The notes under the pieces: model-generated
What the model was told of the DNA's origin: nothing
What the model saw: the letters and a program-made list of their open reading frames with translations, nothing else
The model's database searches: none
Source: an uncultured Candidatus Saccharibacteria bacterium
Lineage (GTDB): Bacteria > Patescibacteriota > Minisyncoccia > Phycocordibacterales > UBA1006
Length of the DNA stretch: 64,000 bases
NCBI GenBank assembly: GCA_964350165.1
Contig: CAYGJA010000002.1
Span: forward strand, 119,822-183,821
Reading direction: 5' to 3'
Shown here: one piece after another, positions 25,437 through 64,000 of the stretch
How the letters are laid out: every line of letters begins with the position of its first letter
Position numbering within the stretch: position 1 is the stretch's first letter
Translations under genes and position numbers: made by a program

Positions 25437-25438
25437 CT

Positions 25439-44036: not shown

Positions 44037-47000
44037 ATGAAGAAAATACTTTTTTTACCCAAGAAATTTGGATTTATTACTGGCGGATTCCTTTTGTTGG
44101 CCCTCTTTTTAGCTGTTCCTGGAGGTTTTTTGCAGGCTCAAGGTACTGCAATAGTTGACTCGCTTACGCTGGTTAATGCTCAGAATGCAGCAGATGTTTT
44201 GACTGTGGACCCCGGAGAAGTAATACTTCCCAGCGAGACGGGGGGTAGGAATTATACCTTTCGTGCCAATACGGCGGGAACTATTGGTAGTGTCCGTTTT
44301 GTATTGAGTGGTCCTCTTAATACTATATTCGTAGCAAACACAAAGCCTTATATGTTGGCGGGAATAGACTCCAGTGGTTATTACAATGGGCTTAGTTTTC
44401 CTGACGGAACCTATACCTTAACAGCAACGCCCTATACTGGCCCTGGTGCTACTGGTTCTTCGGGGGTATCTCTTTCGAGAACGTTTACGGTTGGTAATAG
44501 TGCTCCTGCTTCAACAGGAGGAACTCAAACCACTATTGATTTCTCAGTAAATGATTTGGTTGAGCTCATTCAGGTAACACCCCTATACGACCAACCGGGT
44601 GGTGCTTTTTTATACAACGGGCAGAGCGATCTAACTGCGCAGATTGTAAATACTTCTGTTGTTCGCAACGGTGTTCCTTGGTGGAACATCCAGATGTGGG
44701 ACGGAAAAATTGGCTGGGTGCCGCAAACGTACTTAACTTTAGCTGCTGTTAATACTGACACCACCCCACCAGCCACCCCAACCCTCAACACTTCCGTCTC
44801 GGGAACAACCGTTAACCTAAATTGGAATGCGGTTACCGACCCAAGTTCAGTGGCCTATGAAGTCCAAAAAGACGGAGTAAATCTAATCACCAACTTAACC
44901 ACTACTTCATACGTTGCCACCAATCTTTCTGCTGGAAACCACGTCTTTCGAATTCGAGCCAAAGATGGCTCCAATAACTATTCTGGTTGGAGTAGTAAGA
45001 CTGTGACGATTAGTGCGCCGGGGCCGGTCACAACTCCAACCCCAACTCCAACCGATCCAACACCAGTTCCTACCGATCCAACACCAACAGATTCTGTGCC
45101 ACCAGTTGTTACCGGACACCAAGCTCCTGGTCTGATTCAAGCAGAAGATTTTTCAGCAGCTTCGGACGCTACCCCTGGAAATAGTGGCTTGGCTTTTGGG
45201 GGAATAACTAATAGTGCTAATCCTAATGTTGACATTGAGGCAACAACCGATACTGCTGGAGGTCACAATGTGGGTTGGACAAATGTTGGGGAAACTCTCA
45301 GTTACGAAATTACGGTTGCCGAAACTGGAACATACACCGTTGAGTATCGTCTCTCAAGTATTTTTGCTCAAAAAAACAGGTTCCAGGTTCTGCTTGATGG
45401 GGCCATCGTTCATACCGTGGCCGTGCCAAGCACCGGGGGGTGGCAATCTTGGGCAACCGTGTCCAAGACGCTTAACCTCACCGCTGGGCAACATACACTT
45501 CGTTTGAATATTATTGAAAGTGGCTGGAATATTAACTGGATAAAATTCACGAAACAAACAGGTACCACTGCTCCTGACCCAACCCCACTTCCAACAGCTC
45601 CTTCTACTCAGTTTTCTGTAGGCGATTGTGTGATTACTACCGCAACCTCTCTTAATATTAGAAACACTCCTAATGGCACGGTTCTTGGCCAGTTGCTACC
45701 AGGGGTCATTGCCTCGGTGGTTCAGAATAGTCAGAATGGTACCACTGTTGGTGGATATACTTGGTGGAATATTGAAACCAGTTCACTCACTGGCTGGGCT
45801 GCTGAAGAATACCTGGTTGATAGCGCTTGCGTTCCTGTTCCAGTCTCTGACACCACCCCACCAGCTACCCCAACCCTTAACACTTCCGTCTCGGGAACAA
45901 CCGTTAACCTAAATTGGAATGCGGTTACCGACCCAAGTTCAGTGGCCTATGAAGTCCAAAAAGACGGAGTAAATCTAATCACCAACTTAACCACTACTTC
46001 ATACGTTGCCACCAATCTTTCTGCTGGAAACCACGTCTTTCGAATTCGAGCCAAAGATGGCTCCAATAACTATTCTGGTTGGAGTAGTAAGACTGTGACG
46101 ATTAGTGCGCCGGGGCCGATAGTAAACACAGGGCCGATTGTGAAAGGTGGTATGGTAACAACGCAAGGTTCTGGGTCTATGCAGCTTTATGGAGACGCTG
46201 GTGCTAATCCTATCGACACCATCGTTTCTGGAATTAGTGGAATTGTTACCCATGATTGTTTGGAAAATGGAGCAACCTATTGCCGAGTCGTTTTCGATAA
46301 TGGCCAAGATGGCTGGCTAGACGATTCTTATTTGGTGCACACCGGATCATCTCCGGTTCCAACAGGACCAACGACGGTTGCTTCACAATTTTCTAGTGGG
46401 CAATGTGTGCAGGTGACGGCAAGCTCGCTTAATGTCCGAAGTGCCCCTGGAACAAGCGCGTCCTTTTTGGGTAGCCAGACTCTGAACAGTAAAGGAACTG
46501 TTTTGGCAAATTCAAACACAAACCCTTCTTCGGCCAATGGATTTATCTGGAGACAGATTGATTTCTTGCAAGGAGTCGATGGTTATGTGGCTGAGCAGTA
46601 CCTAGACCCTGCAACTAATTGTTCTATGCCAGCACCTGCCCCGGTTCCTGTTGTTGATGTCACTGCGCCACCGGTTCCTTCGTTCTCAAGCTCATCTCCA
46701 AATACTAACGCTATAACACTCTCTTGGAGTTCTGTAGAAAGTGGCGCTGTGTATGAGATACGTCGGGGCACCACCATTGTGGCTTCTTCTTTGACCAATC
46801 TCTCACATACAGTATCTGGTTTGGCTTCAGGAACTTCTTATACTTTCCAGATTAGAGCAAAAGATGCTGCTGGAAATACTTCTGCGTGGTCCGCTTCCTT
46901 GACTGTAGATACCCTATCTGTTGTTACGAATCCAGCACCGCCTACTTCGAATGGGGGAACGGTTGGGGTTCCGGTGACACAATGTTCTGACGGTGTGGAC

Positions 47001-48596
47001 AACGATTCTGATGGGCTGGTTGATTATCCAAACGATCCTGGTTGTGCATCGCCAAACGATGACAACGAGGATAATGTTGCGGTCCCGCCTACGGGAAATG
47101 TCATCAACGTCAGTAGCGGTGGGAGTATCGCCAACGCTATCGCCAGTGTCACATCGACTCCGGTTACCATTTATCTTGCTCCTGGCACCTACAATGTTGG
47201 CTCAGGTATCACACTTCCAGATGGAGTGAGTCTAGTCGGTTCGGGTGTTGATAAGACGACTATCACCAGCAACATAACGTATCAATCTGACATCTACACC
47301 ATTCAGCAGGCTGGTGCAGGAGCTCAGGGAGTGTTGATTACCACCGGAAGCAACCAAGTAATCCGAGACCTAACACTTGATGGTAATAATAAAAATATTT
47401 CAATAGCGATTCGTACAGCGCCGGGCAGTCCTGCTCCAACCAATGTTTCTAATGTAGAGATGTACAATCTACACATTAAAGAATTCTATACTTCGGGTGT
47501 TGTCTTGACCCAGATAAGTAATAGTAGTTTGCACGACACTACTTTCTACGACAACTCTTGGACTTCAAACAACAATGATGGCTACACAACTGCTTCGATT
47601 GTTTGGCACAGTACAACAGATGTTGATGTTTACAACGTCGACATTCTCGAACGAGAACAGCGCAGTGGCCACATCGGAGGAGGTAGCGGTATGGACGCTA
47701 TTCCTTTGCCTCCTACATACGGCAACACTCTGACAAGAACTCGCTTCTTTAATTCACGTGTGTTTGTCGACCCATTCTCTCCTTGGGGTGGTGGTGTAAA
47801 CAGTAATATTGCGCACGAATGGTGGGGAACCGAATTGATAGATTCTGAGATATTCAACAATACCTACAACAACAACCTGAGCTTGGTCTTTGAACACGCG
47901 GGTCCTCAGGGCGTGCCGTCGGTGAAGGTCTACAACAACAATTTCTTCCTTAGTGACGTCAAGTCTTGGGGCGTAGAGGTAACGAGACATGACGTAGAGC
48001 TCTACAATAATTACTTCGACACTGGTCTGGTTGGTACTCCTGTGTTTGCCAACTGGGATGGAGGTTTCCGGCCCGAAAATACCAATATTCATGGCAACCT
48101 TATCAGAATAAGACAGGGCTATACCAACTGGATAAGTTCAGTCATAACCTTTGCTGGTGGATTCAAAAACATGAACTTTACCAACAATACAGTGCATGTT
48201 GATACGAGTGCTGAGGTTACAATGCTTGCTTTGTATGGCCAGGGTACAATTGTTGACTCTCACTTTGATAACAATCTGTTCTATCGAAGTATTCCAAAAA
48301 GCGGTGGTGGAGTTGATCCCTTCTTGCACCTGGAACCCTACGGTTGTTCTACGCCGGCTACGTTTGGAATTCAGAACGTGACTCTGCGTAATAACTTGTT
48401 TGACGGCATAAACAAAGACGCGTTCCGTACCACCTGTAATTCGACCAAGACCGGAGATTTGATGCAATCAGGCAACATCAACGCCTCGGCTCAATTGAAT
48501 CTATCTGGATCTCGCTATGGTTCCTACTACACCCCGCTATCTACGAGTCCAGCTGTTGGAGGTGGTCTTGATGGATCAAACATCGGAGCTTTCTAG
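44037..48596 (+). CDS. Giant (1519 aa) surface protein with SH3b x3-4, FN3 x2 (near-identical), a CBM6-like domain, a TSP3-like Cys motif and a C-terminal right-handed beta-helix
   Basis: It has a signal/TM (GGFLLLALFLAVPGG). It has SH3b-like WWNIQMWDGKIGWVPQTYL, TWWNIETSSLTGWAAEEYL and FIWRQIDFLQGVDGYVAEQYL. FN3 VNLNWNAVTDPSSVAYEVQKDG occurs twice. It has a CBM-like HTLRLNIIESGWNINWIKF and a beta-helix repeat region NNN/YNN. Confidence 0.55.
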   Translation: MKKILFLPKKFGFITGGFLLLALFLAVPGGFLQAQGTAIVDSLTLVNAQNAADVLTVDPGEVILPSETGGRNYTFRANTAGTIGSVRFVLSGPLNTIFVANTKPYMLAGIDSSGYYNGLSFPDGTYTLTATPYTGPGATGSSGVSLSRTFTVGNSAPASTGGTQTTIDFSVNDLVELIQVTPLYDQPGGAFLYNGQSDLTAQIVNTSVVRNGVPWWNIQMWDGKIGWVPQTYLTLAAVNTDTTPPATPTLNTSVSGTTVNLNWNAVTDPSSVAYEVQKDGVNLITNLTTTSYVATNLSAGNHVFRIRAKDGSNNYSGWSSKTVTISAPGPVTTPTPTPTDPTPVPTDPTPTDSVPPVVTGHQAPGLIQAEDFSAASDATPGNSGLAFGGITNSANPNVDIEATTDTAGGHNVGWTNVGETLSYEITVAETGTYTVEYRLSSIFAQKNRFQVLLDGAIVHTVAVPSTGGWQSWATVSKTLNLTAGQHTLRLNIIESGWNINWIKFTKQTGTTAPDPTPLPTAPSTQFSVGDCVITTATSLNIRNTPNGTVLGQLLPGVIASVVQNSQNGTTVGGYTWWNIETSSLTGWAAEEYLVDSACVPVPVSDTTPPATPTLNTSVSGTTVNLNWNAVTDPSSVAYEVQKDGVNLITNLTTTSYVATNLSAGNHVFRIRAKDGSNNYSGWSSKTVTISAPGPIVNTGPIVKGGMVTTQGSGSMQLYGDAGANPIDTIVSGISGIVTHDCLENGATYCRVVFDNGQDGWLDDSYLVHTGSSPVPTGPTTVASQFSSGQCVQVTASSLNVRSAPGTSASFLGSQTLNSKGTVLANSNTNPSSANGFIWRQIDFLQGVDGYVAEQYLDPATNCSMPAPAPVPVVDVTAPPVPSFSSSSPNTNAITLSWSSVESGAVYEIRRGTTIVASSLTNLSHTVSGLASGTSYTFQIRAKDAAGNTSAWSASLTVDTLSVVTNPAPPTSNGGTVGVPVTQCSDGVDNDSDGLVDYPNDPGCASPNDDNEDNVAVPPTGNVINVSSGGSIANAIASVTSTPVTIYLAPGTYNVGSGITLPDGVSLVGSGVDKTTITSNITYQSDIYTIQQAGAGAQGVLITTGSNQVIRDLTLDGNNKNISIAIRTAPGSPAPTNVSNVEMYNLHIKEFYTSGVVLTQISNSSLHDTTFYDNSWTSNNNDGYTTASIVWHSTTDVDVYNVDILEREQRSGHIGGGSGMDAIPLPPTYGNTLTRTRFFNSRVFVDPFSPWGGGVNSNIAHEWWGTELIDSEIFNNTYNNNLSLVFEHAGPQGVPSVKVYNNNFFLSDVKSWGVEVTRHDVELYNNYFDTGLVGTPVFANWDGGFRPENTNIHGNLIRIRQGYTNWISSVITFAGGFKNMNFTNNTVHVDTSAEVTMLALYGQGTIVDSHFDNNLFYRSIPKSGGGVDPFLHLEPYGCSTPATFGIQNVTLRNNLFDGINKDAFRTTCNSTKTGDLMQSGNINASAQLNLSGSRYGSYYTPLSTSPAVGGGLDGSNIGAF
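44755..45026 (+). repeat. 272-nt intragenic direct repeat copy 1 (FN3-encoding), near-identical to 45847-46118
   Basis: I saw only 2 mismatches over about 272 nt on direct comparison. Confidence 0.85.
45847..46118 (+). repeat. 272-nt intragenic direct repeat copy 2
   Basis: See copy 1. The copies are 1092 nt apart. Confidence 0.85.
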
Positions 48597-54713: not shown

Positions 54714-56366
54714 CTAAGACTTATCTGAAAATAAATAGTCTCTTTCATCAACATAACTACCTTTTGGGTACAGAAGATTTCGATACTTCTCGAGTAGTGC
54801 TTTTACCTCATATTGCAGACTCCCCTGAATCTCTTTTTCATAGATACTCCTTAAATCTGAAGTGGCTTGATTTTTAAGATCGATATTTTGTTCATCCCGA
54901 ACATAAAGTACTCCCGAGTTGTAGTGTTTAGTTCTTTCATTAACATGATTACGATGCTCCGTAATCTTTATCATTACCGAACCTAGGCCTTCAGATTTCT
55001 CACTATCTTGTATGTCAACAAATTTATTCTCTAACCAATCGCTATACCCGTGTTTTTGTAAGAGATCCTTAAACTCTTGTGTGAATTGTTGGCCAATTTT
55101 CTGGTGTTTTAACTCTTCTCGTTGGTATGTTGCGTGAACGAGAAGAGAAAGTATCATTTGAGCATTTTTAATATCCTCAATGCTTCCACATAACAACATG
55201 TCGGTTCGCCCAGCAAAGTGTGGCGTTAAGCTCTTTCCATCAGCACCAGGAACGAAGTGTTTTCCAACAACAACCTGACCAGCATCGTAAATGGTTACAC
55301 CATTTATCCCTTGGTTGTGATCAAGAAAAGCAGGAGTGTACTGTAAGGTTTTTGTGCGACTCAACATAAAGGCAAGTGTTGCAATACCGCAACCTTCATT
55401 GTCAAGACGTTGCGGAATGCACGCTTGATAATAAGACTCAGGATCAGTATTTATTCCAGAGCTTTTTTTCTTTTTTTCTAACACCGCAAGACAAAGTTCG
55501 ATCATTTCAGCATTAGCTACAGGATTAGCGACAAAACATGTATCTTGTCCATGTGCAACGAAGCCACCGGTTTTTTTAAGAAAATGACTCAAGGAAGAAT
55601 TTTGACCGGTATGAGCTTTAAGCCCTATGGGCAATAAGGTTTTATCAAACAAAGCTCGCTCAAGCTTTTCTTTTGAAGCTTCCTTAATGACTTCTTTAAT
55701 CTCTCGATCTAGTTCGTTAGTTTCCTTAAAGAAATTCCTTATTGCTTGCTCGGCATACTGCTTGATTCTTTCTTTGCTCTCGAAGACGCTTGATTTGTTT
55801 TTTTCTAGAAAGAGCTTTAGAAATTGAATTTGGTCAAAAGTTATACGATATCCCTTTGAGATATCTTCAAATAGGGTCTTTTGCAGCCCTTGTTCAATAC
55901 CTTGATTATCTAGCATTTTTTCTGTTGTAATTAACTCATCTTTGTGCGGAATTGCTTGTTGATCTTGAAGCAATCCAAAAACATTGCCCAGACTAGAAAC
56001 TCCTCTTATCTCTGAAAGATAATTAAGCCAAAATTTATGCAAAAAACTATACGTCTCGTCAGAATGAGCTAATTTTTGAAATAATGTTTCAGAGACAGTG
56101 GTTGCGTTTTTTATTCTAGTAAAACAATCACCCAGATCAGAAACTACTTTTGTCTTTGAAAGATAATCAAGCCAAAATTTATGAAGGTTTTCATACACCT
56201 GGTCACTTTTCAGTATTGACCGATATTTGTCTTCACCAAACAAGTGCCCCAACGAGCTAGAGTTTTTTATTGTTGAAAGGGTATCACAAAACTCACGCAC
56301 CAAAGCCTCATTTTCTGGTGTTTCATACTGATTATTCCTTTGTGGCTCAGCAAAAGACTCACTCAT
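54714..56366 (-). CDS. Hypothetical 550-aa protein with an N-terminal tandem approximately-45-aa repeat, possibly effector-like
   Basis: The repeats YENLHKFWLDYLSKTKVVSDLGDCF and YSFLHKFWLNYLSEIRGVSSLGNVF match at both protein and DNA level. The C-terminal half contains spaced Cys/His residues (DTCFVANP, EGCGIATLAF, MLLCGSIEDI). Confidence 0.4.
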   Translation of the reverse strand: MSESFAEPQRNNQYETPENEALVREFCDTLSTIKNSSSLGHLFGEDKYRSILKSDQVYENLHKFWLDYLSKTKVVSDLGDCFTRIKNATTVSETLFQKLAHSDETYSFLHKFWLNYLSEIRGVSSLGNVFGLLQDQQAIPHKDELITTEKMLDNQGIEQGLQKTLFEDISKGYRITFDQIQFLKLFLEKNKSSVFESKERIKQYAEQAIRNFFKETNELDREIKEVIKEASKEKLERALFDKTLLPIGLKAHTGQNSSLSHFLKKTGGFVAHGQDTCFVANPVANAEMIELCLAVLEKKKKSSGINTDPESYYQACIPQRLDNEGCGIATLAFMLSRTKTLQYTPAFLDHNQGINGVTIYDAGQVVVGKHFVPGADGKSLTPHFAGRTDMLLCGSIEDIKNAQMILSLLVHATYQREELKHQKIGQQFTQEFKDLLQKHGYSDWLENKFVDIQDSEKSEGLGSVMIKITEHRNHVNERTKHYNSGVLYVRDEQNIDLKNQATSDLRSIYEKEIQGSLQYEVKALLEKYRNLLYPKGSYVDERDYLFSDKS

Positions 56367-56800: not shown

Positions 56801-58213
56801 CTACAATGAATAATGAGAATTTTTAATATCGCGTTTCCAAAGCGACATGGGTCTGGTGAGTAAGAAGTACATAATTTCTTGCGGTGTATAGTGATCTTGT
56901 ACCGAATATAGCGCATCTAAACCACTGGTAACAATTGTCCGAAAGTGTTCTTTTTCGCGACTGCTTTCCAGGAGCTCTTCTTTTTTTTGTATGTAAAACT
57001 GCATTGCTTGTTTGATGAAAGAGGGTCTATCGCCCGCCGCAAGACGTGCGAATATTTCATCGCGCATGTTGTCTATTTGCTCGGTCTCACCTCTGTTTCT
57101 TGGGCGCACCTCGCCATTGTGCATCGCCGGCTTTGACCCCCCCCGCCAATCTTTATACGATAATTCAAGCTCATGAAATACGGCATGCATCTGTTCGTGG
57201 TCTATTGTGTTTTGAATTTGACGCTGGAAATAAGGCTTGGATTTTTCCTGTGTTGTTGCATTTATCAGTATTGTTGGTATGAAATCATCTTTATGTTTTG
57301 TGTAAAAAAAGACACCATGTGTGGAACCTTTTTTATTTTCTAGTGCGCAATAGTCTTTTTCTGTTTTTACCATTACCATCAATGAAAAAGGAGTTTTTTT
57401 AAACTCTATTGACTCAGGGTCGAGTGAATTTCTTAATTCAATAGCTTTGTCGTTAGGAATTTCTTGATTTGTCCTTTTTATTACATCTAGGATAAAATCA
57501 ATCTTTGGGATTTCTTTTTGCATAGCAGAATAGCTTCTATAAAAAGAGTCCATTTTTGTGTGGGCATATTTCTGTAATGTAATCGTCGTTTGATTAAAAA
57601 ATTCTACCTCACCATTCTTTTGTTGAGTTATAACATTAAAGGCATTATCTACTAAATCATGCAAAAAAACTGATGTTATTGTCTCGGGGTTACGCTGATA
57701 TTGATTTTTAATTGCAGAAATAGCGTTTTCTGCTGCTCTTTCTAGAGAGTTGCGATATTGCTCTACTGCACTTTTAACTTTACAGAGAACTTCTTCGCGC
57801 AAGGCTGGGGTGATGTTGCGAATACTTGCTGGTAGTCGGATGATTTCCCAGAAATGCTCCTGAATAAAAGCCCTCTGTTGTTGAAGATCTAATTTCTGGA
57901 TGTTTTGCAGTATTCTTTCTTTTTCACGTAGCCGGTGTTCGAGCTCAGCTTTTTCTTCTCGTTTTTTTTGTAGAGCCACAAAGACTTCTTTTGCTTTTTC
58001 GTACCGTTCTGCTTGTCGCTCCGTGAGTCTCTGATAATAATCCAAAGACTCTTCTTCTATAATAGCTCTTCTATTTTGACGATTAAATTGATGAAAAGGT
58101 TCAATCATGTTTTTAGTTTGATGTGAATCTGTAAAACAAATTGTACCATTTAAAATGAACATCGTGAGCGTTATATGGATCTCCGCCGACTGGTGGAGAT
58201 CGAACCTAAACAA
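56801..58213 (-). CDS. Hypothetical 470-aa protein with an HExxH motif and an N-terminal coiled coil, possibly a zinc-metallopeptidase-like effector
   Basis: It has TIDHEQMHAVFHE (HEQMH). It has the coiled-coil sequence EKAKEVFVALQKKREEKAELEHRLREKERILQNIQKLDLQQQ. Confidence 0.35.
   Translation of the reverse strand: MFRFDLHQSAEIHITLTMFILNGTICFTDSHQTKNMIEPFHQFNRQNRRAIIEEESLDYYQRLTERQAERYEKAKEVFVALQKKREEKAELEHRLREKERILQNIQKLDLQQQRAFIQEHFWEIIRLPASIRNITPALREEVLCKVKSAVEQYRNSLERAAENAISAIKNQYQRNPETITSVFLHDLVDNAFNVITQQKNGEVEFFNQTTITLQKYAHTKMDSFYRSYSAMQKEIPKIDFILDVIKRTNQEIPNDKAIELRNSLDPESIEFKKTPFSLMVMVKTEKDYCALENKKGSTHGVFFYTKHKDDFIPTILINATTQEKSKPYFQRQIQNTIDHEQMHAVFHELELSYKDWRGGSKPAMHNGEVRPRNRGETEQIDNMRDEIFARLAAGDRPSFIKQAMQFYIQKKEELLESSREKEHFRTIVTSGLDALYSVQDHYTPQEIMYFLLTRPMSLWKRDIKNSHYSL
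58176..58210. repeat. Cassette-boundary repeat R1 (ggatctccgccgactggtggagatcgaacctaaac), overlapping the PLD gene stop codon
   Basis: It is a member of the GGTTCGAACCTAAAT repeat family. It has a hairpin GATCTCC-N10-GGAGATC. Confidence 0.7.
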
Positions 58214-59240
58214 GATAAATCAGCATTTCTACGGCAGCACCTGTAAGTTTGTCCCACCAGGAGAGAGGGTGATCGGCGGGCTGGTATGCGCGAGCTCGGG
58301 CTAGCCAGTCGGAAACAATTTTCTTTAGACGGACTACGGTTTCTCGATTATTGAGCTCGATGCCGACCTCAGCGTTAAGGCGAAAAGAAAAAACATCTAA
58401 ATTTTGTGAGCCAACCAAGGCGGTTTTGGAATCGATAGTAATTGTCTTGGCATGATTCATGTCCTTGGAAAGATAGATTTCGGCACCAAATTTGTGGGCT
58501 TTGTTGAGAAAATAGATGTTAATGGCATCAATGCTTTCTTGATCAGTTCGGCTGGGAACCAAAAGGATAACGCGAATCCCCCGCAGGCAAGCCTGGTGGA
58601 TTTCTGCCAAGATGTATCGCTTGGGAGCAAAATACGGCGTTGTGATGATAATTTCATGTTCTGCCTCTACAAAATAGCGATGGTAGTCTTGCTGGAGATG
58701 ATGAATCTGAAGGGCGGGGAAGTGTTCGCTTATTTTTGCTCGAGCACGCCCCAGTAAGGTGGTGTTTTTTAGCGCGAGCACTTCCGGGTTTTTTCCTCCT
58801 GCCCAATGATAATCGCACACAAACATATTGGTCAGTCTCTGGATAAGATGCTTGTTTGTAGTTGAGATAGCCAAATCGGCCCAATTTTTTGCTGATTCGT
58901 GAATGTTGACACCACCTGTAAAGACAATTTCCTGGTCAACAATGATGATTTTTCGATGTAGCCGATGTCGATAGCGACTTGCCAAGTGAAGCTCGGCTCC
59001 TGCTTTTTCAAGCTTCTGTTGTTGAAGCTTTGGAAATGCACGACTGCCAAAACCGTCTAACACCAAAACCACTCGCACTCCTGATTCGGCTTTGGATCGA
59101 AGCAGGCTAACAAAGTCGTATTCAGGTGTATCCGGCAAGAAAATATACATCTCAATAAGAATGTATTCCTTTGCGCTCGCCAAGGTGTGGTACATATGTT
59201 TCCAAGCCTTGTGTGACTTGGTATAAAAACGATAGCTCAT
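58206..59240 (-). CDS. Phospholipase D-family protein (two HKD motifs, cardiolipin-synthase/PLD-like)
   Basis: It has HRKIIIVDQEIVFTGGVN and NHAKTITIDSKTALVGSQN. Confidence 0.65.
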   Translation of the reverse strand: MSYRFYTKSHKAWKHMYHTLASAKEYILIEMYIFLPDTPEYDFVSLLRSKAESGVRVVLVLDGFGSRAFPKLQQQKLEKAGAELHLASRYRHRLHRKIIIVDQEIVFTGGVNIHESAKNWADLAISTTNKHLIQRLTNMFVCDYHWAGGKNPEVLALKNTTLLGRARAKISEHFPALQIHHLQQDYHRYFVEAEHEIIITTPYFAPKRYILAEIHQACLRGIRVILLVPSRTDQESIDAINIYFLNKAHKFGAEIYLSKDMNHAKTITIDSKTALVGSQNLDVFSFRLNAEVGIELNNRETVVRLKKIVSDWLARARAYQPADHPLSWWDKLTGAAVEMLIYLV

Positions 59241-59331
59241 ATTTCTAGGCTAAGTATACCAATAGATTAGAAAGACATAGTCAACGTGCATTCGCGAAGC
59301 AATCAAAAAGCTGAATATACCAGCTATCAAT

Positions 59332-59357
59332 CAACTGGCTGGGGTTCGAACCTAAAT
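59332..59357. repeat. Cassette-boundary repeat R2 (caactggctggggttcgaacctaaat), overlapping the stop of 59352-60038
   Basis: It has the perfect 10-bp palindrome GGTTCGAACC. Confidence 0.75.
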
Positions 59358-60038
59358 ATCAATATGCGGCGCAGTGTTGCCCTTAAAGTCCCGTGGATAT
59401 TCTTCTACTTGGACATTAAAAGATGTTGTGTGGCCAGCAAAATAGACTGTCACTTTTGCATCCCCTCGACCAACGATAATAGGAGATGCTGTAAAGCTGG
59501 GTGGTGAATCTTGGCTGGTGCGAGTGTCTGTGATTTGGAAAGACAAGACTCGTGTGTTTGAGGACTCTAGGGCCAGAGGGGTGTCTGGGTTAATTTGTGA
59601 CACATATCGCGCAAAGCCGTCAAAAGAAGGCGCACCGTTAGCTTGTTCAATACGGAGTTCGGGGCCAAATCTACCCCAGTTTTGCTCCACAAAGAATTGA
59701 TTGCTTGAAGGCTTATTTTTGTTGTCGACAAGACTAATAAGCATGTTTTGTCCACATTTAGCTTTTATGTATCGTCTGGAAACCGTGCAGACAGAAATCT
59801 TAGAAAACGCCGGGTTGGGCTCTTGGTTTAGGTTCAAATTAAGCGGATTAAATATCTCGACTACTGGTCGGGGGGCGGGCAAGATTCGTATGTGATTAGC
59901 GTATACATAGCCTATCCATGGAATCACGGAAAAGCTGATTAGGACGAATGTGAAAAATATCTTGGTAAATTTTTGCTCTTTGTCAGGAGTGGGCAAGTCG
60001 GCGACCTTCTGTTCAGGTGGCAACAAGTCGTTTGTCAT
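59352..60038 (-). CDS. Signal-anchored secreted hypothetical protein
   Basis: Its N-terminal TM is IFFTFVLISFSVIPWIGYVYA. It has no recognisable domain. Confidence 0.4.
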   Translation of the reverse strand: MTNDLLPPEQKVADLPTPDKEQKFTKIFFTFVLISFSVIPWIGYVYANHIRILPAPRPVVEIFNPLNLNLNQEPNPAFSKISVCTVSRRYIKAKCGQNMLISLVDNKNKPSSNQFFVEQNWGRFGPELRIEQANGAPSFDGFARYVSQINPDTPLALESSNTRVLSFQITDTRTSQDSPPSFTASPIIVGRGDAKVTVYFAGHTTSFNVQVEEYPRDFKGNTAPHIDI

Positions 60039-60105
60039 AAAATTATTTTACCATAAGTCTAATCGAGCCAATCAAGAGGTTCTTGTAAAATAGAAGCCAA
60101 ATCGG

Positions 60106-60138
60106 ATCTCTGCCAACTGGCTGGGGTTCGAACTTAGA
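60106..60138. repeat. Cassette-boundary repeat R3 (atctctgccaactggctggggttcgaacttaga)
   Basis: It shares 25 of 26 nt with R2 and R4. Confidence 0.75.
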
Positions 60139-60179
60139 ATAAGAGACAGATCGCTAGATTAGTTTTTCAGCTCATCAAT

Positions 60180-60548
60180 TTGTGCAACAATGAGTCTATG
60201 AAAATTAACACTTTTTCAAAAATAGTCTTGGTCGTGAACATCGTGGCTCTCATTGGCACAGCCTTCCTGTCTTTTAGCCCGTTGCTACTTGTTTTGGTTG
60301 CCCTTAGTTTATATATAATTTTTTCGAAAGAATTATCAGCAAAGTTCCTTTCATTTTTCTCGTATAGCATGAGTTTGGGCTATATCGCCGTATTAGTGAT
60401 GTCAGTCGTGAGGGAGCCGAATATTCTTAGCGCTTACATTGGAGATTATTCTTTGTCCGTGACAGCATTTTTTTACATCAAACAGATCTTGATTATATTC
60501 TTGATTATCGGTTTTTTGTTTGTTGCCCGAATGTTTAGAAAGAAATAA
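60180..60548 (+). CDS. Small integral membrane protein (3-4 TM helices), unknown function
   Basis: It is hydrophobic (IVLVVNIVALIGTAFLSFSPLLLVLVALSLYIIF...). Confidence 0.4.
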   Translation: MCNNESMKINTFSKIVLVVNIVALIGTAFLSFSPLLLVLVALSLYIIFSKELSAKFLSFFSYSMSLGYIAVLVMSVVREPNILSAYIGDYSLSVTAFFYIKQILIIFLIIGFLFVARMFRKK

Positions 60549-60578
60549 ACATCATGCACTTCATGAACGTTAAATCGT

Positions 60579-60611
60579 AGCTCTGCCAACTGGCTGGGGT
60601 TCGAACTTAGA
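60579..60611. repeat. Cassette-boundary repeat R4 (agctctgccaactggctggggttcgaacttaga)
   Basis: It is near-identical to R3. Confidence 0.75.
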
Positions 60612-60658
60612 AGCCTGGAGTCCTTGCAGGTGATGTGTCTTGTTGCTATAAGTAAGTC

Positions 60659-61555
60659 ATGAAAATAAGCTCAAAAATCAAACTAATAATCGGATTACTT
60701 GGGATTGTTGCGGTCGTGCTCTTTGTGTCTAGAGAAGGTTCAAGCATGTCTATGTGGGATCAGTCTAATGTTGCCGGGCCATCCGAAACCATACAAGAAA
60801 GCAGTGCAAAGGACAGGAGAGGGGACTCCAATGAGCCGCTAACGAATACTGTTGTCCTCGTCGATAAGCCACTGGACCAAGATGGTTTTACTGTTTTCCC
60901 AATAACCAAGGCAATGTATGACGAGATCCCTGCGTTTGAGTATCAGCATCAGTTTGCGCAACCATATATGGATGAGTGCCTTGACGCGATCGGGGGCACG
61001 TCCGCATACCTGCGCTGTGTTGAGGGATTTGAGATCGTAAAATATCAAGAGTACGCACGACGAGAGGGAGACTGTTTGATAATTGCCCTAAGAGAGGCGG
61101 GGTCGTTAGAGATTTGTGATCGCAATACGCCTTCTAATCCTGAAAGTTATTACTATGCTACATATATGCCTAAATTAGGGCACGTTTACTTAACGCAGGG
61201 CAACGAATATAGCAGTTACACCTACGTATCTGAAAAAGGAAATGAGATCGCAGTATCTTCAGAGCTGCTCCACCCGATACCTGAAACTAGTTATTATATT
61301 GAAAATCGCATAGATAACGGAGAGTCACGGTACGGATGGAATGGGGTTCGGATTAGGCAACTGCACGAGGGGGTACTGTCTACTGTTTTTGAGTTTAATC
61401 CATTTGATTATGGTGAGACATATGCATTTGAGCGCATTAAATTTGTTGAGCCCGGCAAGTTTTTGTTTAAAAAGTCGCCCGCACCAGAGTATTTAGACCC
61501 AGGGCCGATTGATTGGTTATATGGCGAGGTGAGCTATAAAGTAAAGGCTGAATAG
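60659..61555 (+). CDS. Secreted hypothetical protein (signal anchor; Cys-containing)
   Basis: Its N-terminus is IKLIIGLLGIVAVVLFVS. It has no recognisable domain. Confidence 0.4.
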   Translation: MKISSKIKLIIGLLGIVAVVLFVSREGSSMSMWDQSNVAGPSETIQESSAKDRRGDSNEPLTNTVVLVDKPLDQDGFTVFPITKAMYDEIPAFEYQHQFAQPYMDECLDAIGGTSAYLRCVEGFEIVKYQEYARREGDCLIIALREAGSLEICDRNTPSNPESYYYATYMPKLGHVYLTQGNEYSSYTYVSEKGNEIAVSSELLHPIPETSYYIENRIDNGESRYGWNGVRIRQLHEGVLSTVFEFNPFDYGETYAFERIKFVEPGKFLFKKSPAPEYLDPGPIDWLYGEVSYKVKAE

Positions 61556-61597
61556 CCATTCAAGATAGGAGAATCATCTGATATTTTGCCCTATATA

Positions 61598-61677
61598 ACG
61601 TTCACGACGTTCAGACGTTCACAAAAACCCTAGCGCTAAGGATGCTCCGCGGATTGAGGAGGGTTCGAACCTAAATA
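61598..61677. repeat. Cassette-boundary repeat R5, full-length 80-nt form, overlapping the stop of 61671-62306
   Basis: The sequence is aACGTTCAcgACGTTCAgACGTTCAcaaaaaCCCTAGCGCTAAGGatgCTCCGCGGattgaGGAGGGTTCGAACCtaaat. It contains three 9-bp direct repeats plus the palindromes TAGCGCTA, CCGCGG and GGTTCGAACC. Confidence 0.8.
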
Positions 61678-62306
61678 CTCAGCACTTGTACATAAAAAGT
61701 CTTTTGGAGGATATGGAGTAGCTCCCTAGATCTAGCAATTTGACGGTCGGCATACTCACCAATAGCGCCTTCAATTGGTGCTGTAATTGTAAAATCTCGA
61801 AAGAAGGCCTCCTTGTCAGATTCTGAAACCTCTGACCAAAAAGTTTTTGGTAAGCCAAATTTGCCGTCACGGTGACGCATTATTCTTTGTGTAAGTCTCT
61901 GTAAATAAATATCTTTGCTGTCGGGAAAAAGGAATAAAAACTCGTAATCTCCTGAGTGGGGGTCTAGGATTTTATGTACGGTCGGTGGGTGCTTGATCGG
62001 GCACTCAACAACTACTCTTGAGCCGGCACTATTTATCGCTTGCTGGGCCTGGCGTAGATAATGTTCCATCCATACCTCTTTGCCTTCCCCGCGGTTAACT
62101 CTTTTAAAGGTGTCTCCCGGTTCAAGATTGTATTTCTCAACGATCTCATTTTGGATCATTTGGTCAAGGTCGACCAGGACATATGAGAACTCTTTCCTCA
62201 ATTTCTCGGCAAAAGTGCTTTTGCCCACAGCAGTAGTGCCGTATAGATAGATAACTTTTGGTGAACGGCCGGTGTTGAGTTGCGCGAGATATTCTTGAGT
62301 TTTCAT
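61671..62306 (-). CDS. P-loop kinase-like protein (AAA/zeta-toxin/gluconokinase-like fold)
   Basis: It has the Walker A motif VIYLYGTTAVGKSTFAEKL. The size is 211 aa. Confidence 0.45.
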   Translation of the reverse strand: MKTQEYLAQLNTGRSPKVIYLYGTTAVGKSTFAEKLRKEFSYVLVDLDQMIQNEIVEKYNLEPGDTFKRVNRGEGKEVWMEHYLRQAQQAINSAGSRVVVECPIKHPPTVHKILDPHSGDYEFLFLFPDSKDIYLQRLTQRIMRHRDGKFGLPKTFWSEVSESDKEAFFRDFTITAPIEGAIGEYADRQIARSRELLHILQKTFYVQVLSI

Positions 62307-62325
62307 ATCCTCATCATACCACCCT

Positions 62326-62404
62326 AACGTTCACGACGTTCAGACGTTCACACAGACCCTAGCGGTAAGGATGCTCCCCGTACTAGACAAGTTCCGAACT
62401 TTGG
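62326..62404. repeat. Cassette-boundary repeat R6, full-length form with a degenerate 3' end
   Basis: The sequence aacgttcacgacgttcagacgttcacacagaccctagcggtaaggatgctccccgtactagacaagttccgaactttgg is about 80% identical to R5. Confidence 0.75.
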
Positions 62405-62454
62405 ATTGGATAGAAATTGAGAAGGGATTTCAGTTATTTAGAATGCATAACGAA

Positions 62455-63492
62455 TTATTCAAGACAGTTCTCCAGTAGTTTCAGTTTGGAATTAGTTAAA
62501 TCAATTTCTATCTCAATTCCATTAGGCAGTACTATTTGGGGGTCAGTATGACCAAACTCGGCATTTGTGACTATTGGCAGGTCGGATTGACCGAACTCAA
62601 TTGAAACGACTTCCTTGACTGCTTCGTCTAGCTCCTCTTTTTCTTCGTCCGAATAGTTTCGGGCACGTGCAAAAATGATGCCGTTTATTTTTCCGAAAAC
62701 ACCCTGAACGCCGTAATTTCTTAACATCCATTTTACTGACGAGATAGAAGGTTTTTCTTCTGAAGTCTCAAAAAACAGTATTTTATCATTCCAAAAGTCA
62801 TCATTAGGATAGAAGGTTGTGCTTTTTATAAACTCTAGCACCTCAATACATCCTCCAAAGAGCTTTCCTGATACGACACCTGATCCCTGAATGGTCCTCA
62901 TTCCTTCGTCTTCCTTCAGCTCTTTCGTTTTGCCTAGGTTCTCTTCCTTATGCCAGTCGAGGTAACCGTCACAATACTGACCAAAGTGAGGATATTCGTA
63001 AGTGTCTGAGGGGCTAAACAAAATATCGTATACATGTTGCTTGAAAGCATCTGGCAAGCTTTCCATCTGTGAAAAACCTGCCATTACTGATGGACCATTG
63101 AAGGTCACTAGGCCTAATTGATTTATGTAGGTGAGCAGTGTTGTCGTATCTGAATAGCCCATAAGTATCTTGGGGTTATTTGCAATTACTTCTTTATCCA
63201 AAAATGGCAAAATACGTACAGAGTCATCTCCTCCAATTGAAACCAGGATAGCATTCACTTCTTTGTCAGCAAAAGCATCGTTGATGTCTTTTGCCCTAAG
63301 CTTTGCGTTGGCTAAGCTTGGGTCGCCAACAGCACGAGTGGATGGATATTCTTTAATATTCAGCCCCCACTCCTTGAGAACCTTAAGCCCATTTTCATAT
63401 ACAGCAGGAAAAGTGTTCGGACCTGCCCACGAGGGCGAGAGTACTGCGACGGTGTCGCCAGGATTTAGTTTTTTTGGCTTTTTGTAATTCAT
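62455..63492 (-). CDS. S66-family LD-carboxypeptidase (MccF/LdcA-like)
   Basis: It has PGDTVAVLSPSWAGP and the nucleophile context MGYSDTTTLLTY. Confidence 0.55.
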   Translation of the reverse strand: MNYKKPKKLNPGDTVAVLSPSWAGPNTFPAVYENGLKVLKEWGLNIKEYPSTRAVGDPSLANAKLRAKDINDAFADKEVNAILVSIGGDDSVRILPFLDKEVIANNPKILMGYSDTTTLLTYINQLGLVTFNGPSVMAGFSQMESLPDAFKQHVYDILFSPSDTYEYPHFGQYCDGYLDWHKEENLGKTKELKEDEGMRTIQGSGVVSGKLFGGCIEVLEFIKSTTFYPNDDFWNDKILFFETSEEKPSISSVKWMLRNYGVQGVFGKINGIIFARARNYSDEEKEELDEAVKEVVSIEFGQSDLPIVTNAEFGHTDPQIVLPNGIEIEIDLTNSKLKLLENCLE

Positions 63493-63532
63493 TTCCTGAT
63501 TATATCAAAGTTCTGAGTCCTGTTGGGGTATA

Positions 63533-63563
63533 CAAAAAGACCCTTATGAATAGGGGTCTTTTT
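63533..63563. terminator. Bidirectional hairpin terminator (AAAGACCC-ttatgaata-GGGGTCTTTTT)
   Basis: It was read directly and lies between R7 and the LD-carboxypeptidase gene start. Confidence 0.55.
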
Positions 63564-63600
63564 GATGGCTCCGCGGACTGAGCAGGGTTCGAACCTAAAT
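63564..63600. repeat. Cassette-boundary repeat R7 (gatggctccgcggactgagcagggttcgaacctaaat), overlapping the GNAT gene stop
   Basis: It has the hairpin GCTC-N9-GAGC followed by GGTTCGAACCTAAAT. Confidence 0.75.
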
Positions 63601-64000
63601 CAACTCTTTTTCCATGATGGTTAATGTGTAGGTTGGACGTTTTTTTGTCCCAACCTCTATATACCCTTGTTTTTCATAATAGGCAGGAAGTCCTTTCTCA
63701 TTCATGGCTGTTAGCTGTATTTTTGCAAAACCTTCCTGCTTAGCGGATTCCTCTGCTGCTCTGAGTAGTTTTTTGCCGATACCTTGTGAGCGATAAGTAG
63801 GGAGGCTGGCCATTTGGCTGAGATACGCCGTTCCATCCTGGTCTTCGTATTGGACAGAGCCAGCTATTTTTTGATCCACTTTGGCCACAAAGAGTCGAAC
63901 ATCCTTGGATCGAACTCTTTCTGCATAATCTTCAGGAAAGTGAGGCTTTGAGATTGGCCCTTGGTTTTCGTGGTTTACCGTGTAGGCAAGTGTTAGAAAT
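63595..64000 (-). CDS. GNAT-family N-acetyltransferase (the N-terminus extends beyond the window end)
   Basis: It has RSQGIGKKLLRAAEESAKQEGFAKIQL (acetyl-CoA binding motif). The frame remains open upstream of the annotated Met to position 64000 (…RSKDVRLFVAKVDQKIAG…). Confidence 0.6.
   Translation of the reverse strand, partial: FLTLAYTVNHENQGPISKPHFPEDYAERVRSKDVRLFVAKVDQKIAGSVQYEDQDGTAYLSQMASLPTYRSQGIGKKLLRAAEESAKQEGFAKIQLTAMNEKGLPAYYEKQGYIEVGTKKRPTYTLTIMEKELI

What the first reader, a model, noticed from the sequence alone, without database searches (positions are those of the whole stretch)
58200..63600. Repeat core supplies the stop codon of four minus-strand genes
In R1, R2, R5 and R7 the CTA of GGTTCGAAC-CTA-AAT is the reverse complement of the TAG stop of the PLD gene, the 59352 gene, the kinase gene and the GNAT gene respectively. 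On the coding strand these genes read …TAG-GTTCGAACC-hairpin. Stop codons embedded in a conserved recombination site are characteristic of attC-type elements and of sites that capture ORFs precisely. This argues the repeat is not an incidental terminator.
Basis: seen in the sequence. Interest (0 to 1): 0.5.

Follow-up and report, generated by a model that had tools for sequence, protein, structure and literature searches.

The report
tRNA-like junction repeats between gene cassettes
A 33-36 base repeat that imitates the end of a tRNA-Asn gene separates single genes in a variable gene array of a tiny (Patescibacteria/CPR) bacterium, and its first three bases, TAG, often serve as the stop codon of the gene in front of it.

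Summary
The TAG stops of four minus-strand genes (PLD, a 228-aa orphan, a P-loop kinase, a GNAT) are the CTA of (G)GTTCGAACCTAAA(T/C).

The repeat is neither a terminator nor an integron attC site. Read on the coding strand it is TAGGTTCGAAC-N5-YCAGT-N3-CGGAGC, a mimic of the T-arm-to-3'-end of tRNA-Asn(GTT). It occurs only in this 5.5-kb array, with one gene between successive copies.

Related arrays in five other metagenomic genomes carry the same unit. Two of them begin with a real tRNA-Asn gene. Most junctions add a terminator hairpin and a -10 box 6-7 nt before the next ATG; several also carry three TGAACGT boxes.

Between genomes, similarity starts exactly at the TAG and ends just before the next ATG, while the ORFs in between are unrelated or reshuffled. 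Homologues are not truncated: PLD ends at the family's usual residue, and GNAT is one residue longer. The unit TAG is the stop in 9 of 19 co-oriented genes; the others mostly stop 4-24 nt upstream.

Best reading: att-like junctions of a tRNA-Asn-anchored cassette array, worked by a recombinase that was not found. The stop overlap comes from tight packing against a conserved TAG. Homologous recombination between junction modules is the main rival.

The parts
58178..58210 (-). R1, the terminal (most distal) junction unit: TAGGTTCGATCTCCAC-CAGTCGGCGGAGATCC. It is 1 nt shorter than the other units. Its TAG (58206-58208) is the PLD stop.
58206..59240 (-). PLD / cardiolipin-synthase-like gene (344 aa). 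Its C-terminus is the natural one for the family.
59309..59357 (-). R2, a truncated unit at 59330-59357 that lacks the CGGAGC block, followed by a terminator-like hairpin at 59309-59325. Its TAG (59352-59354) is the stop of the 228-aa ORF.
59352..60038 (-). 228-aa orphan ORF (one cassette).
60105..60139 (-). R3, a unit with TAA in place of TAG (TTCTAAGTTCGAACCCCAGCCAGTTGGCAGAGATCC). No co-oriented gene ends in it.
60198..60548 (+). 116-aa predicted membrane protein. This cassette lies in the opposite orientation to the units.
60545..60612 (-). R4, unit at 60577-60612 plus its downstream module. About 90% identical over 68 nt to a junction in locus L052. The similarity starts exactly at the TAA/TAG.
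60659..61555 (+). 298-aa hypothetical protein. This cassette lies in the opposite orientation to the units.
61596..61676 (-). R5, long-form junction. Unit at 61643-61676, whose TAG (61671-61673) is the kinase stop. Small hairpin plus T-run at 61623-61641. Three TGAACGT boxes at 61598-61621.
61671..62306 (-). P-loop kinase (AAA_33 / CPT / zeta-toxin-like), 211 aa.
62307..62404 (-). R6, long-form junction with a degenerate unit (62369-62404, AAAG in place of TAGG). Three TGAACGT boxes at 62326-62350. Extended -10 box TGGTATGAT at 62313-62321, 6 nt before the kinase ATG.
62455..63492 (-). LD-carboxypeptidase (peptidase S66), 345 aa. It has its own TAA stop, about 54 nt before R6.
63533..63600 (-). 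R7, unit at 63565-63600, whose TAG (63595-63597) is the GNAT stop, followed by a bidirectional terminator hairpin at 63533-63564.
63595..64000 (-). GNAT acetyltransferase, 165 aa in full; it runs off the window. In contig L001 it is preceded by an eighth junction (R8, long form).

Best explanation
Window 58.2-64 kb is the distal part of an array of single-gene cassettes. In related genomes such arrays begin at a tRNA-Asn(GTT) gene.

The junction module (shown). Each junction carries, on the array strand:
- a 33-36-nt unit, TAGGTTCGAAC-N5-YCAGT-N3-CGGAGC, which copies the T-stem/T-loop and the last bases of tRNA-Asn with about 5 extra bases in between;
- in most junctions a terminator hairpin;
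- in several junctions three TGAACGT boxes at 9-10-nt spacing;
- a -10 box 6-7 nt before the next ATG, which suggests leaderless mRNAs.

How it works (inferred). The units are att-type recombination sites, like the attP-type joints between tandemly accreted integrative elements that have lost their integrase. A tyrosine-type recombinase encoded elsewhere would use them to insert, excise and reshuffle cassettes. Under that reading the three boxes could be arm-type binding sites.

Why the stop codon overlaps (partly shown). The TAG belongs to the conserved left edge of the site, at the position of the T-stem 5' strand. In this very compact genome the ORFs have been packed right up to it, by 2-4-nt indels in at least two cases. 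The site therefore supplies the last codon and the stop.
For: - The units are confined to the array, all in one orientation, with one gene between successive copies.
- The same unit occurs in five other assemblies: L038-40, L045, L046/48, L047 and L052/53.
- A real tRNA-Asn(GTT), in the same orientation, heads the array in L038 and in L045.
- The unit profile also hits those tRNA-Asn 3' ends. A two-block search (T-loop plus 3' end) finds mimics only for tRNA-Asn and for none of 13 other tRNAs.
- The sequence after the real tRNA (box repeats, and in L045 also the hairpin and -10) recurs after units.
- Cassette order differs between genomes. The window has GNAT, LD-CPase, kinase; L038 has tRNA-Asn, kinase, GNAT. 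PLD has different neighbours in L052.
- Window/L052 similarity starts exactly at the TAG and stops just before the ATG, with unrelated ORFs in the same slot.
- Blocks TAGGTTCGAAC, YCAGT and CGGAGC are kept across genomes whose flanks have diverged. Most units have TTCGAAC where the two tRNA-Asn genes have TTCGAAT.
- Cargo is integron-like small enzymes: GNAT, kinases, NUDIX, S51 and S66 peptidases, Fic, SET.
- LD-CPase and GNAT relatives sit directly downstream of tRNA genes in many other CPR genomes.
Against: - No integrase or other recombinase was found in the window ORFs tested or in any of the arrays.
- The head of this genome's own array lies beyond base 64000 and could not be fetched.
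- The unit is not an exact copy of the tRNA 3' end. It has about 5 extra bases (RSYCA) between the T-stem and the acceptor-like part, so these copies cannot be displaced, once-functional tRNA ends.
- The promoter part of a junction is conserved between genomes in front of unrelated ORFs. This fits recombination in the flanking modules at least as well as a crossover inside the unit.
- No circular intermediates or empty sites were observed.
Confidence: 0.5

Rival explanations
1. No dedicated recombinase is involved. The roughly 70-130-nt junction modules, running from the TAG to just before the next ATG, are portable homology. Cassettes are swapped by ordinary homologous recombination after DNA uptake. 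The tRNA-like unit would be a relic of one old integration at tRNA-Asn that was later copied along with the module.
For: - Similarity between the window and L052 spans the whole junction and ends sharply at both ORF borders, with unrelated ORFs in the same slot.
- Units within one genome resemble each other more than units of other genomes, as gene conversion would produce.
- No integrase was found.
- Pilin-type N-terminal methylation motifs are present in the window, which is compatible with DNA uptake.
Against: - The three short blocks of the unit are conserved across genomes in which the rest of the module differs.
- Most units differ from the tRNA at one T-loop position (C rather than T), so they are not simply being corrected against the tRNA gene.
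- In the window the units keep one orientation even where the genes are inverted (R3, R4).
Confidence: 0.25
2. The unit works at the RNA level, as a 3'-UTR element of each cassette mRNA. It could be a tRNA-like tag for processing, stability or translation termination, with the TAG as a built-in backstop stop codon.
For: - The unit lies between the stop codon and a terminator in most co-oriented cassettes.
- TAG, or TAA, is kept in nearly all copies.
- Some copies provide a stop in other frames (L046 at 1150, L052 at 544).
Against: - There is no conserved fold. RNAalifold finds only a 5-pair stem with almost no covariation. Single units fold no better than shuffles. Rfam gives no match.
- R3 and R4 keep their orientation although the neighbouring genes are on the other strand.
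- The unit is absent from the other 58 kb of the window.
Confidence: 0.12
3. A classical integron or CALIN: the repeats are attC sites recombined by IntI.
For: The layout is an array of mostly co-oriented single-ORF cassettes, with a site at each 3' end and stop codons inside the site.
Against: - There is no attC-like imperfect palindrome or single-strand fold.
- The core is GTTCGAA, not GTTRRRY.
- The units are 33-36 nt long, not 57-141.
- Each cassette has its own -10 box.
- No intI is present next to the array heads in L038 and L045.
Confidence: 0.03
4. A REP/MITE-like (Correia-like) intergenic element spread by a transposase. The candidate is the RAYT-like Y1 transposase seen 6 kb from the L038 array.
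For: - Some junctions in L045 and L038 have a second, inverted core (GTTCGAACCT) on the far side of the terminator, which gives an inverted-repeat look.
- A Y1_Tnp / weakly RAYT-like gene is present in L038.
Against: - That gene is flanked by its own, unrelated hairpin repeats (ACTTGGAGCTCGGGACTCCAAGT). These are absent from the window and from all other loci.
- The units are not dispersed and do not form hairpins.
- The arrays are anchored at tRNA-Asn.
Confidence: 0.05

Closest known systems
Tandem accretion of integrative elements and CIMEs (cis-mobilizable elements) at tRNA genes
   Same: - Direct repeats resembling the 3' part of a tRNA gene mark the unit borders.
- An intact tRNA sits at one end, in the same orientation.
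- The internal elements lack integrase.
- Cargo accumulates step by step.

Sources: Islander database abstract, PMC4383910; CIME and accretion model, PMC5704250 section 2.3.
   Different: - Units here are single ORFs of 0.35-1 kb, not multi-kb elements.
- No integrase or integrase remnant is seen in any array examined.
- The repeat is a mimic about 5 nt longer than the tRNA end, not a displaced copy.
- The whole stop-to-start junction is a conserved module.
Integron cassette arrays and attC sites, including integrase-less CALINs (from general knowledge of integrons)
   Same: - One ORF per cassette, with a recombination-type site at each 3' end.
- Stop codons often lie inside the site.
- Cargo consists of small resistance-type or detoxification-type enzymes.
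- Cassette order is reshuffled between genomes.
   Different: - No attC fold and no attC core motifs.
- No intI or attI; a tRNA-Asn gene sits where attI would be.
- Every cassette has its own promoter-like -10 box and often its own terminator.
Tycheposon-seeded genomic islands of Prochlorococcus (bioRxiv 10.1101/2020.12.28.424599)
   Same: - A streamlined genome with tRNA-anchored variable islands.
- Partial tRNAs are scattered through the island as traces of successive integrations.
   Different: Tycheposons carry their own tyrosine recombinase and replication genes, and they are kilobases long. Here there are only bare ORFs and junction modules.
pdif modules of Acinetobacter plasmids, which use host XerC/XerD (from general knowledge; not tested here)
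   Same: Small modules of one or a few genes are bounded by short conserved sites and moved by a recombinase encoded elsewhere.
   Different: pdif sites are 28-bp imperfect palindromes in alternating orientation and lie on plasmids. The units here are not palindromic beyond GGTTCGAACC, are directly repeated in the window, and are chromosomal.

Membership tests
Integron (attC cassette array) | attC site: a 57-141-bp imperfect inverted repeat (R''-L''...L'-R') that folds as single-stranded DNA | tested here: not met
   The units are 33-36 nt. For 8 of 10 units the DNA folding z-score lies between -0.6 and +0.9. RNAalifold finds one weak 5-pair stem.
Integron (attC cassette array) | Core sites RYYYAAC and GTTRRRY | tested here: not met
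   The core reads GTTCGAA(C); position 4 is C, not a purine. There is no paired inverse core.
Integron (attC cassette array) | intI integrase with attI and Pc at the array head | tested here: not met
   In L038 and L045 the arrays start at a tRNA-Asn gene. L038 has no integrase within the 9 kb upstream; for L045 only about 350 nt upstream of the tRNA is held, and no integrase lies in the array itself. The window's own array head lies outside the window.
Integron (attC cassette array) | Single-ORF cassettes separated by sites, mostly co-oriented | tested here: met
   The seven junctions in the window have exactly one gene between successive copies. Five of the seven genes are co-oriented.
tRNA-targeting integrative element (att sites, tandem accretion, CIME) | The repeat matches the 3' part of a tRNA gene | tested here: inconclusive
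   The T-stem/T-loop part (AGGTTCGAA) and the 3' end (CGGAGC, often GTCGGCGGAGC) match tRNA-Asn. About 5 extra nt lie between them, and the T-loop has C where the tRNA has T.
tRNA-targeting integrative element (att sites, tandem accretion, CIME) | An intact tRNA gene at one end, in the same orientation as the repeats | tested here: met
   tRNA-Asn(GTT) heads the arrays in L038 and L045. This could not be tested for the window's own array, which runs off the window.
tRNA-targeting integrative element (att sites, tandem accretion, CIME) | A tyrosine (or serine) integrase in the element or array | tested here: not met
   Pfam and PHROGs scans of the array ORFs and of many window ORFs found none. 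The rest of the genome was not available.
tRNA-targeting integrative element (att sites, tandem accretion, CIME) | Demonstrated excision or integration (circular form, empty site) | not testable with these tools
   Only assembled contigs were available. Logan contigs break at the repeats, which is what any repeat would cause.
Intrinsic terminator | A GC-rich hairpin followed by a T-run | tested here: not met
   The unit has no significant hairpin. Separate hairpin/T-run elements follow it at R7, R5 and R2.
REP / RAYT system | Palindromic repeats dispersed over the genome and flanking a RAYT gene | tested here: not met
   The units are confined to the array. The RAYT-like gene in L038 is flanked by different hairpin repeats.

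The most novel reading that the evidence does not exclude
A previously undescribed, integron-like gene-capture system of Patescibacteria. It would consist of arrays of bare, probably leaderless ORFs anchored at tRNA-Asn. The ORFs are exchanged between constant junction modules. Each module supplies the stop codon (in a tRNA-Asn 3'-end mimic), the terminator and the promoter. The arrays would be operated by a recombinase that is not encoded in the array, or by a mechanism not yet known. The 5-nt insert ending in CCA/TCA hints at something other than a plain att core.
Probability: 0.3. Interest if true: 0.8.

Novelty: new variant of a known kind. Interest (0 to 1): 0.55.

Why it matters
CPR/Patescibacteria have tiny genomes and few recognised mobile elements. 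How they gain and swap accessory genes is poorly understood.

This array is recurrent and anchored at tRNA-Asn. It consists of single-ORF cassettes with standardised junctions. Its cargo resembles resistance and detoxification genes: GNAT, kinases, an S66 LD-carboxypeptidase, NUDIX, Fic. If confirmed, it would be a compact gene-shuffling platform in this group.

It also gives a concrete sequence signature, TAGGTTCGAAC-N5-YCAGT-N3-CGGAGC, with which to find more arrays and the enzyme that works on them.

For annotation, it explains why several unrelated genes share the same last codon and stop.

Tried and rejected
- tRNA and Rfam scans of the window found nothing. The units are fragments or mimics, not genes.
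- I first read the units as tRNA-Ser 3' ends (TCAGTCC-G). I dropped this once real tRNA-Asn genes were found at two array heads and the two-block comparison fitted only tRNA-Asn.
- Fetching the source contig beyond base 64000 failed. The kinase is not on record. The PLD, LD-CPase and 298-aa proteins returned only short Logan contigs that break at the repeats.
- The genome-contig scan did not contain the source genome.
- The protein-based scan of metagenome contigs with the kinase found nothing. The viral contigs pattern scan found nothing.
- The search for an integrase was negative throughout.
- PADLOC gave only generic PLD (DrmC-like) hits.
- The REP/RAYT idea was rejected, because the L038 RAYT-like gene has its own unrelated hairpins.
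- IS91-type (GTTC target) and IS200/IS605 mechanisms were considered from general knowledge. I set them aside because no such transposase and no hairpin ends are present.
- The C-terminus test could not be done for the 228-aa ORF, which has no homologues.
- Literature searches for CPR integrons or cassette arrays returned nothing relevant.


Full report
**1. The observation**

The region was read directly and its ORFs were listed. Four minus-strand ORFs end with TAG:
- PLD, 58206-59240
- a 228-aa ORF, 59352-60038
- a P-loop kinase, 61671-62306
- a GNAT, 63595 to beyond the window end

On the + strand each of these stops is the CTA of GGTTCGAACCTAAAT. In R1 the variant is GATCGAACCTAAAC.

- The exact 15-mer occurs 3 times against 0.16 expected.
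- The exact 9-mer GGTTCGAAC occurs at five places only, all between 59343 and 63594.
- The codon before the stop (ATT, or GTT in R1) is also part of the conserved sequence.
- Outside the array, TAG ends 12 of 35 long ORFs. Four TAG stops in one identical context is not chance.

**2. What the repeat is**

On the coding (minus) strand the unit reads TAGGTTCGAAC-N5-YCAGT-N3-CGGAGC and is 33-36 nt long.

There are seven copies in the window: R1-R5 and R7, plus a degenerate R6 (family D3). An eighth copy lies just beyond the window, upstream of GNAT, in contig L001. All copies share one orientation, and exactly one gene lies between successive copies.

The cassette genes are:
- PLD / cardiolipin-synthase-like
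- a 228-aa orphan
- a small membrane protein and a 298-aa hypothetical protein, both inverted relative to the units
- an AAA_33/CPT-like kinase
- an S66 LD-carboxypeptidase
- a GNAT

The unit is not a terminator and not a structured site:
- Single units fold as DNA no better than shuffled sequence.
- RNAalifold over 17 copies finds only one 5-pair stem with almost no covariation.
- Rfam and ARAGORN find nothing.

Separate terminator hairpins follow R7, R5 and R2.

The long-form junctions (R5, R6, R8) add three further parts:
- a small hairpin with a T-run
- three TGAACGT boxes at 9-10-nt spacing
- an extended -10 box (TGGTATGAT or TATAAT) only 6-7 nt before the next ATG

TGAACGT is almost absent from the rest of the window.

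**3. Related arrays elsewhere**

Protein hits place the organism in Patescibacteria/CPR. The source genome itself is not in the GTDB representative set.

The unit was found in five other assemblies:
- **L038-L040** (Logan contigs; GNAT 77% and kinase 65% identical).
- **L045, L046/L048 and L047** (JGI metagenomes), found with the pattern ATTTAGGTTCGAAC-N12-16-GGAGC.
- **L052/L053** (ENA contigs; PLD 75% identical).

In L038 and in L045 the array starts with a real tRNA-Asn(GTT) gene in the same orientation as the units.

Comparing the tRNA 3' end with the unit:
- tRNA-Asn: GTAGG-TTCGAAT-CCTAC-CGGCGGAGC (L045) or ACAGG-TTCGAAT-CCTGT-CGGCGGAGC (L038)
- unit: TTAGG-TTCGAAC-N5-YCA-GTCSGCGGAGC

So the unit copies the T-stem 5' strand, the T-loop and the last 6-11 bases of tRNA-Asn, with about 5 extra bases (RSYCA) in between. 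The unit profile picks up these tRNA-Asn ends, and no other tRNA among the loci fetched up to that search. A two-block search (T-loop plus 3' end) finds mimics only for tRNA-Asn, not for 13 other tRNAs.

The TAG sits at the position of the T-stem 5' strand.

The sequence after the real tRNA-Asn recurs after units. In both genomes this includes the box repeats. In L045 the hairpin/T-run and the -10 box recur as well.

**4. Are the genes truncated?

They are not.
- **PLD:** 50 of 55 homologues end at the same alignment column as the window protein. In L052 the gene ends ATT TAG and is followed by CC-AGGTTCGAAC, so its stop lies 4 nt before the unit's TAG position.
- **Kinase:** the L038 homologue ends at the same Ile and is followed by the same ATT-TAG-GTTCGAAC.
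- **GNAT:** three homologues end ...MEK(E/N)L, while the window protein ends ...MEKELI. At the DNA level L038 reads TTG TGA TC TAG GTTCTAAC and the window reads TTG ATT TAG GTTCGAAC. A 2-nt difference removes the gene's own stop and lets the unit's TAG take over.
- **228-aa ORF:** it has no homologues.

Across six arrays I compared each unit with the end of the nearest co-oriented ORF. Of 19 such genes:
- the unit TAG is the stop in 9 (window 4, L052 3, L038 1, L047 1);
- 7 have their own stop 4-24 nt upstream;
- 3 end inside or just after the unit in another frame.

TAG (rarely TAA or CAG) is kept whether or not it is used as a stop. The overlap is therefore a frequent by-product of packing ORFs against a conserved TAG. 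It is not a requirement of the element, and it is not a sign of truncation by insertion.

**5. Evidence for cassette exchange**

Gene order differs between related genomes:
- window: GNAT, LD-CPase, kinase
- L038: tRNA-Asn, kinase, GNAT
- PLD has different neighbours in L052.

Three pairwise alignments between the window and L052 show where similarity starts and stops:
- R4 against L052a: similarity starts exactly at the TAA/TAG and runs for 68 nt at about 90% identity. There is none upstream.
- The kinase end plus R5, against the end of an unrelated 173-aa ORF plus its unit: similarity starts at TAGG.
- The promoter half of R6, against the junction in front of that 173-aa ORF: the 41-nt promoter core up to the -10 box is 95% identical (39/41), and similarity fades over the last few bases before the ATG. 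The two ORFs are unrelated by BLASTP.

So the conserved element is the whole stop-to-start junction, and the variable elements are bare ORFs.

Relatives of the LD-CPase (about 60% identity) and of the GNAT lie directly downstream of various tRNA genes (Ser, His, Val, Arg, Phe) in many CPR lineages. LD-CPase relatives also appear in archaeal MAG bins.

Independent assemblies from NCBI, Logan, ENA and JGI all show these arrays, so they are not assembly artefacts.

**6. Mechanism**

Shown:
- the anatomy of the junction
- its likeness to tRNA-Asn
- the tRNA-Asn heads of two arrays
- confinement of the units to the array
- reshuffling of cassettes between genomes
- absence of truncation

Inferred: the units are att-type sites.

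The layout resembles the joints between tandemly integrated elements at tRNA genes. It has a core that resembles the tRNA's T-arm and 3' end. In several junctions, three direct repeats at helical spacing lie to one side; these could be arm-type sites by analogy with lambda-type att sites (my own knowledge, not tested here). In that model, integration splits the tRNA gene, the island restores it, and a displaced fragment marks the island's end (PMC4383910). Elements that have lost their integrase but kept their att sites are called CIMEs and are built up by accretion (PMC5704250).

Three points weigh against a simple version of this model:
- No recombinase gene was found anywhere I could look.
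- The units carry about 5 extra bases, so they were never functional tRNA ends.
- The promoter halves of junctions are conserved in front of unrelated ORFs.

The main rival is homologous recombination between junction modules after DNA uptake. Two features argue for a sequence-specific factor rather than mere homology. The three blocks of the unit are conserved across genomes whose modules otherwise differ. Most units also differ from the tRNA at one T-loop position (C instead of T).

I put the site-specific (att-like) reading at about 0.5 and homologous recombination alone at about 0.25. An RNA-level 3'-UTR role gets about 0.12, and classical attC or REP/MITE readings get 0.03 and 0.05.

**7. 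Comparison with known systems**

The array works like a tRNA-anchored accretion island and like an integron array. It fails the defining features of integrons: attC fold, core motifs, intI, promoterless cassettes. It also lacks the integrase and the exact tRNA-fragment repeats of ordinary tRNA islands and of tycheposons.

I found no description of such arrays in CPR bacteria. I file it as a new variant of a known kind.

**8. Verdict**

The stop-codon overlap is real. It is explained by a conserved, tRNA-Asn-like junction element that begins with TAG. It does not indicate truncation, and the element is not an attC site. The array itself is the more interesting object.

Interest 0.55. The most novel reading still open is a distinct, integrase-less cassette platform of Patescibacteria, with probability about 0.3.

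Noticed in passing
window 62307-62321, 63493-63504; L001 60-80; L038 9205-9227, 10083-10102; L045 and L052 junctions: In most cassettes the -10 box (TATAAT, TATGAT or TATACT, often with an upstream TGG) ends only 6-7 nt before the ATG. These genes are probably expressed as leaderless mRNAs. That would explain why the variable part of each cassette is exactly the ORF.
   Followed up: partly
L005, L006, L008, L009, L016, L018, L032 (LD-carboxypeptidase loci); L041 703-1314 (GNAT): Relatives of the LD-carboxypeptidase (about 60% identical) lie directly downstream of different tRNA genes (Ser, His, Val, Arg), in the same orientation, in many CPR lineages. They also occur in contigs binned as Bathyarchaeia and Thermoplasmata. 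A GNAT relative lies directly after tRNA-Phe. None of these loci shows the two-block tRNA mimic downstream.
   Followed up: partly
L045 3139-3170, 5855-5885, 7515-7545 (+ strand of the locus): Three junctions carry a second, inverted copy of the core (CCCTCGACTGGAGTTCGAACCTTGGTATACT on the array strand). It sits right at the promoter of the next gene. The reverse complement of a unit therefore looks like a promoter (TCGACT, 16 nt, TATACT). In the window, R3 and R4 stand next to the + strand genes and read CCAACT-16-TAGAAT (R3) or TAGAAG (R4) on the + strand.
   Followed up: partly
all units, e.g. window 63572-63581 (R7): Compared with tRNA-Asn, the units carry about 5 extra bases between the T-stem-like part and the acceptor-like part. 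Examples are AGCCA, GCTCA, CCTCA and ACTCA, usually ending in CCA or TCA. I have no explanation for this.
   Followed up: no
L045 6494-6531: The NUDIX ORF reads through a degenerate unit and stops in the first box of the downstream module. Its last 12 or so residues are therefore encoded by junction sequence.
   Followed up: no
L047 6774-6779: Two convergent ORFs both end in the hexamer ATTTAG/CTAAAT at the unit's edge: a SET-domain gene on the + strand and a 421-aa ORF on the - strand.
   Followed up: no
L038 2576-3324: A Y1 transposase (a weak match to REP-associated tyrosine transposase) is flanked by three copies of a perfect hairpin repeat, ACTTGGAGCTCGGGACTCCAAGT. This repeat is unrelated to the junction unit and is absent from the window and from all other loci.
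   Followed up: yes
L039 4300-5038: An IS3-type transposase (HTH_Tnp_1 ORF followed by a second ORF) sits just beyond the last cassette of the L038/L039 array.
   Followed up: no
L008 9704-9852 and 9719 / 13616: A duplicated tRNA-Val 3' end lies 125 nt after the tRNA-Val gene. A different direct repeat (GGATTCGAACAAAGKGGTGGCGGGGAAA) brackets about 3.9 kb that includes the LD-carboxypeptidase. This may be an analogous arrangement in another CPR lineage.
   Followed up: no
L041 315-345: A tRNA-like T-arm and acceptor fragment (CCAGGTTCGATTCCTGGTTAGGGCAC) lies about 60 nt after tRNA-Arg and just before a small ORF.
   Followed up: no
window 54714-56366 (-), repeats at 56000-56290: The 550-aa hypothetical protein next to the array contains internal repeats about 150 nt apart (protein motif ...FLHKFWL(D/N)YLS...). 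It has no Pfam, PHROGs or PADLOC match.
   Followed up: no
window 56801-58108 (-): The first gene outside the array encodes a 435-aa protein with no family match and a motif resembling HExxH (HEQMH). Its promoter region, directly after R1, contains degenerate, inverted TGAACGT-like boxes and a TGGTACAAT -10 box.
   Followed up: no
window 25409-33577 and 44037-48596 (+); 498-2896 (+): The window holds two giant ORFs (2722 and 1519 aa), which were not analysed. It also holds proteins with pilin-type N-terminal methylation motifs.
   Followed up: no
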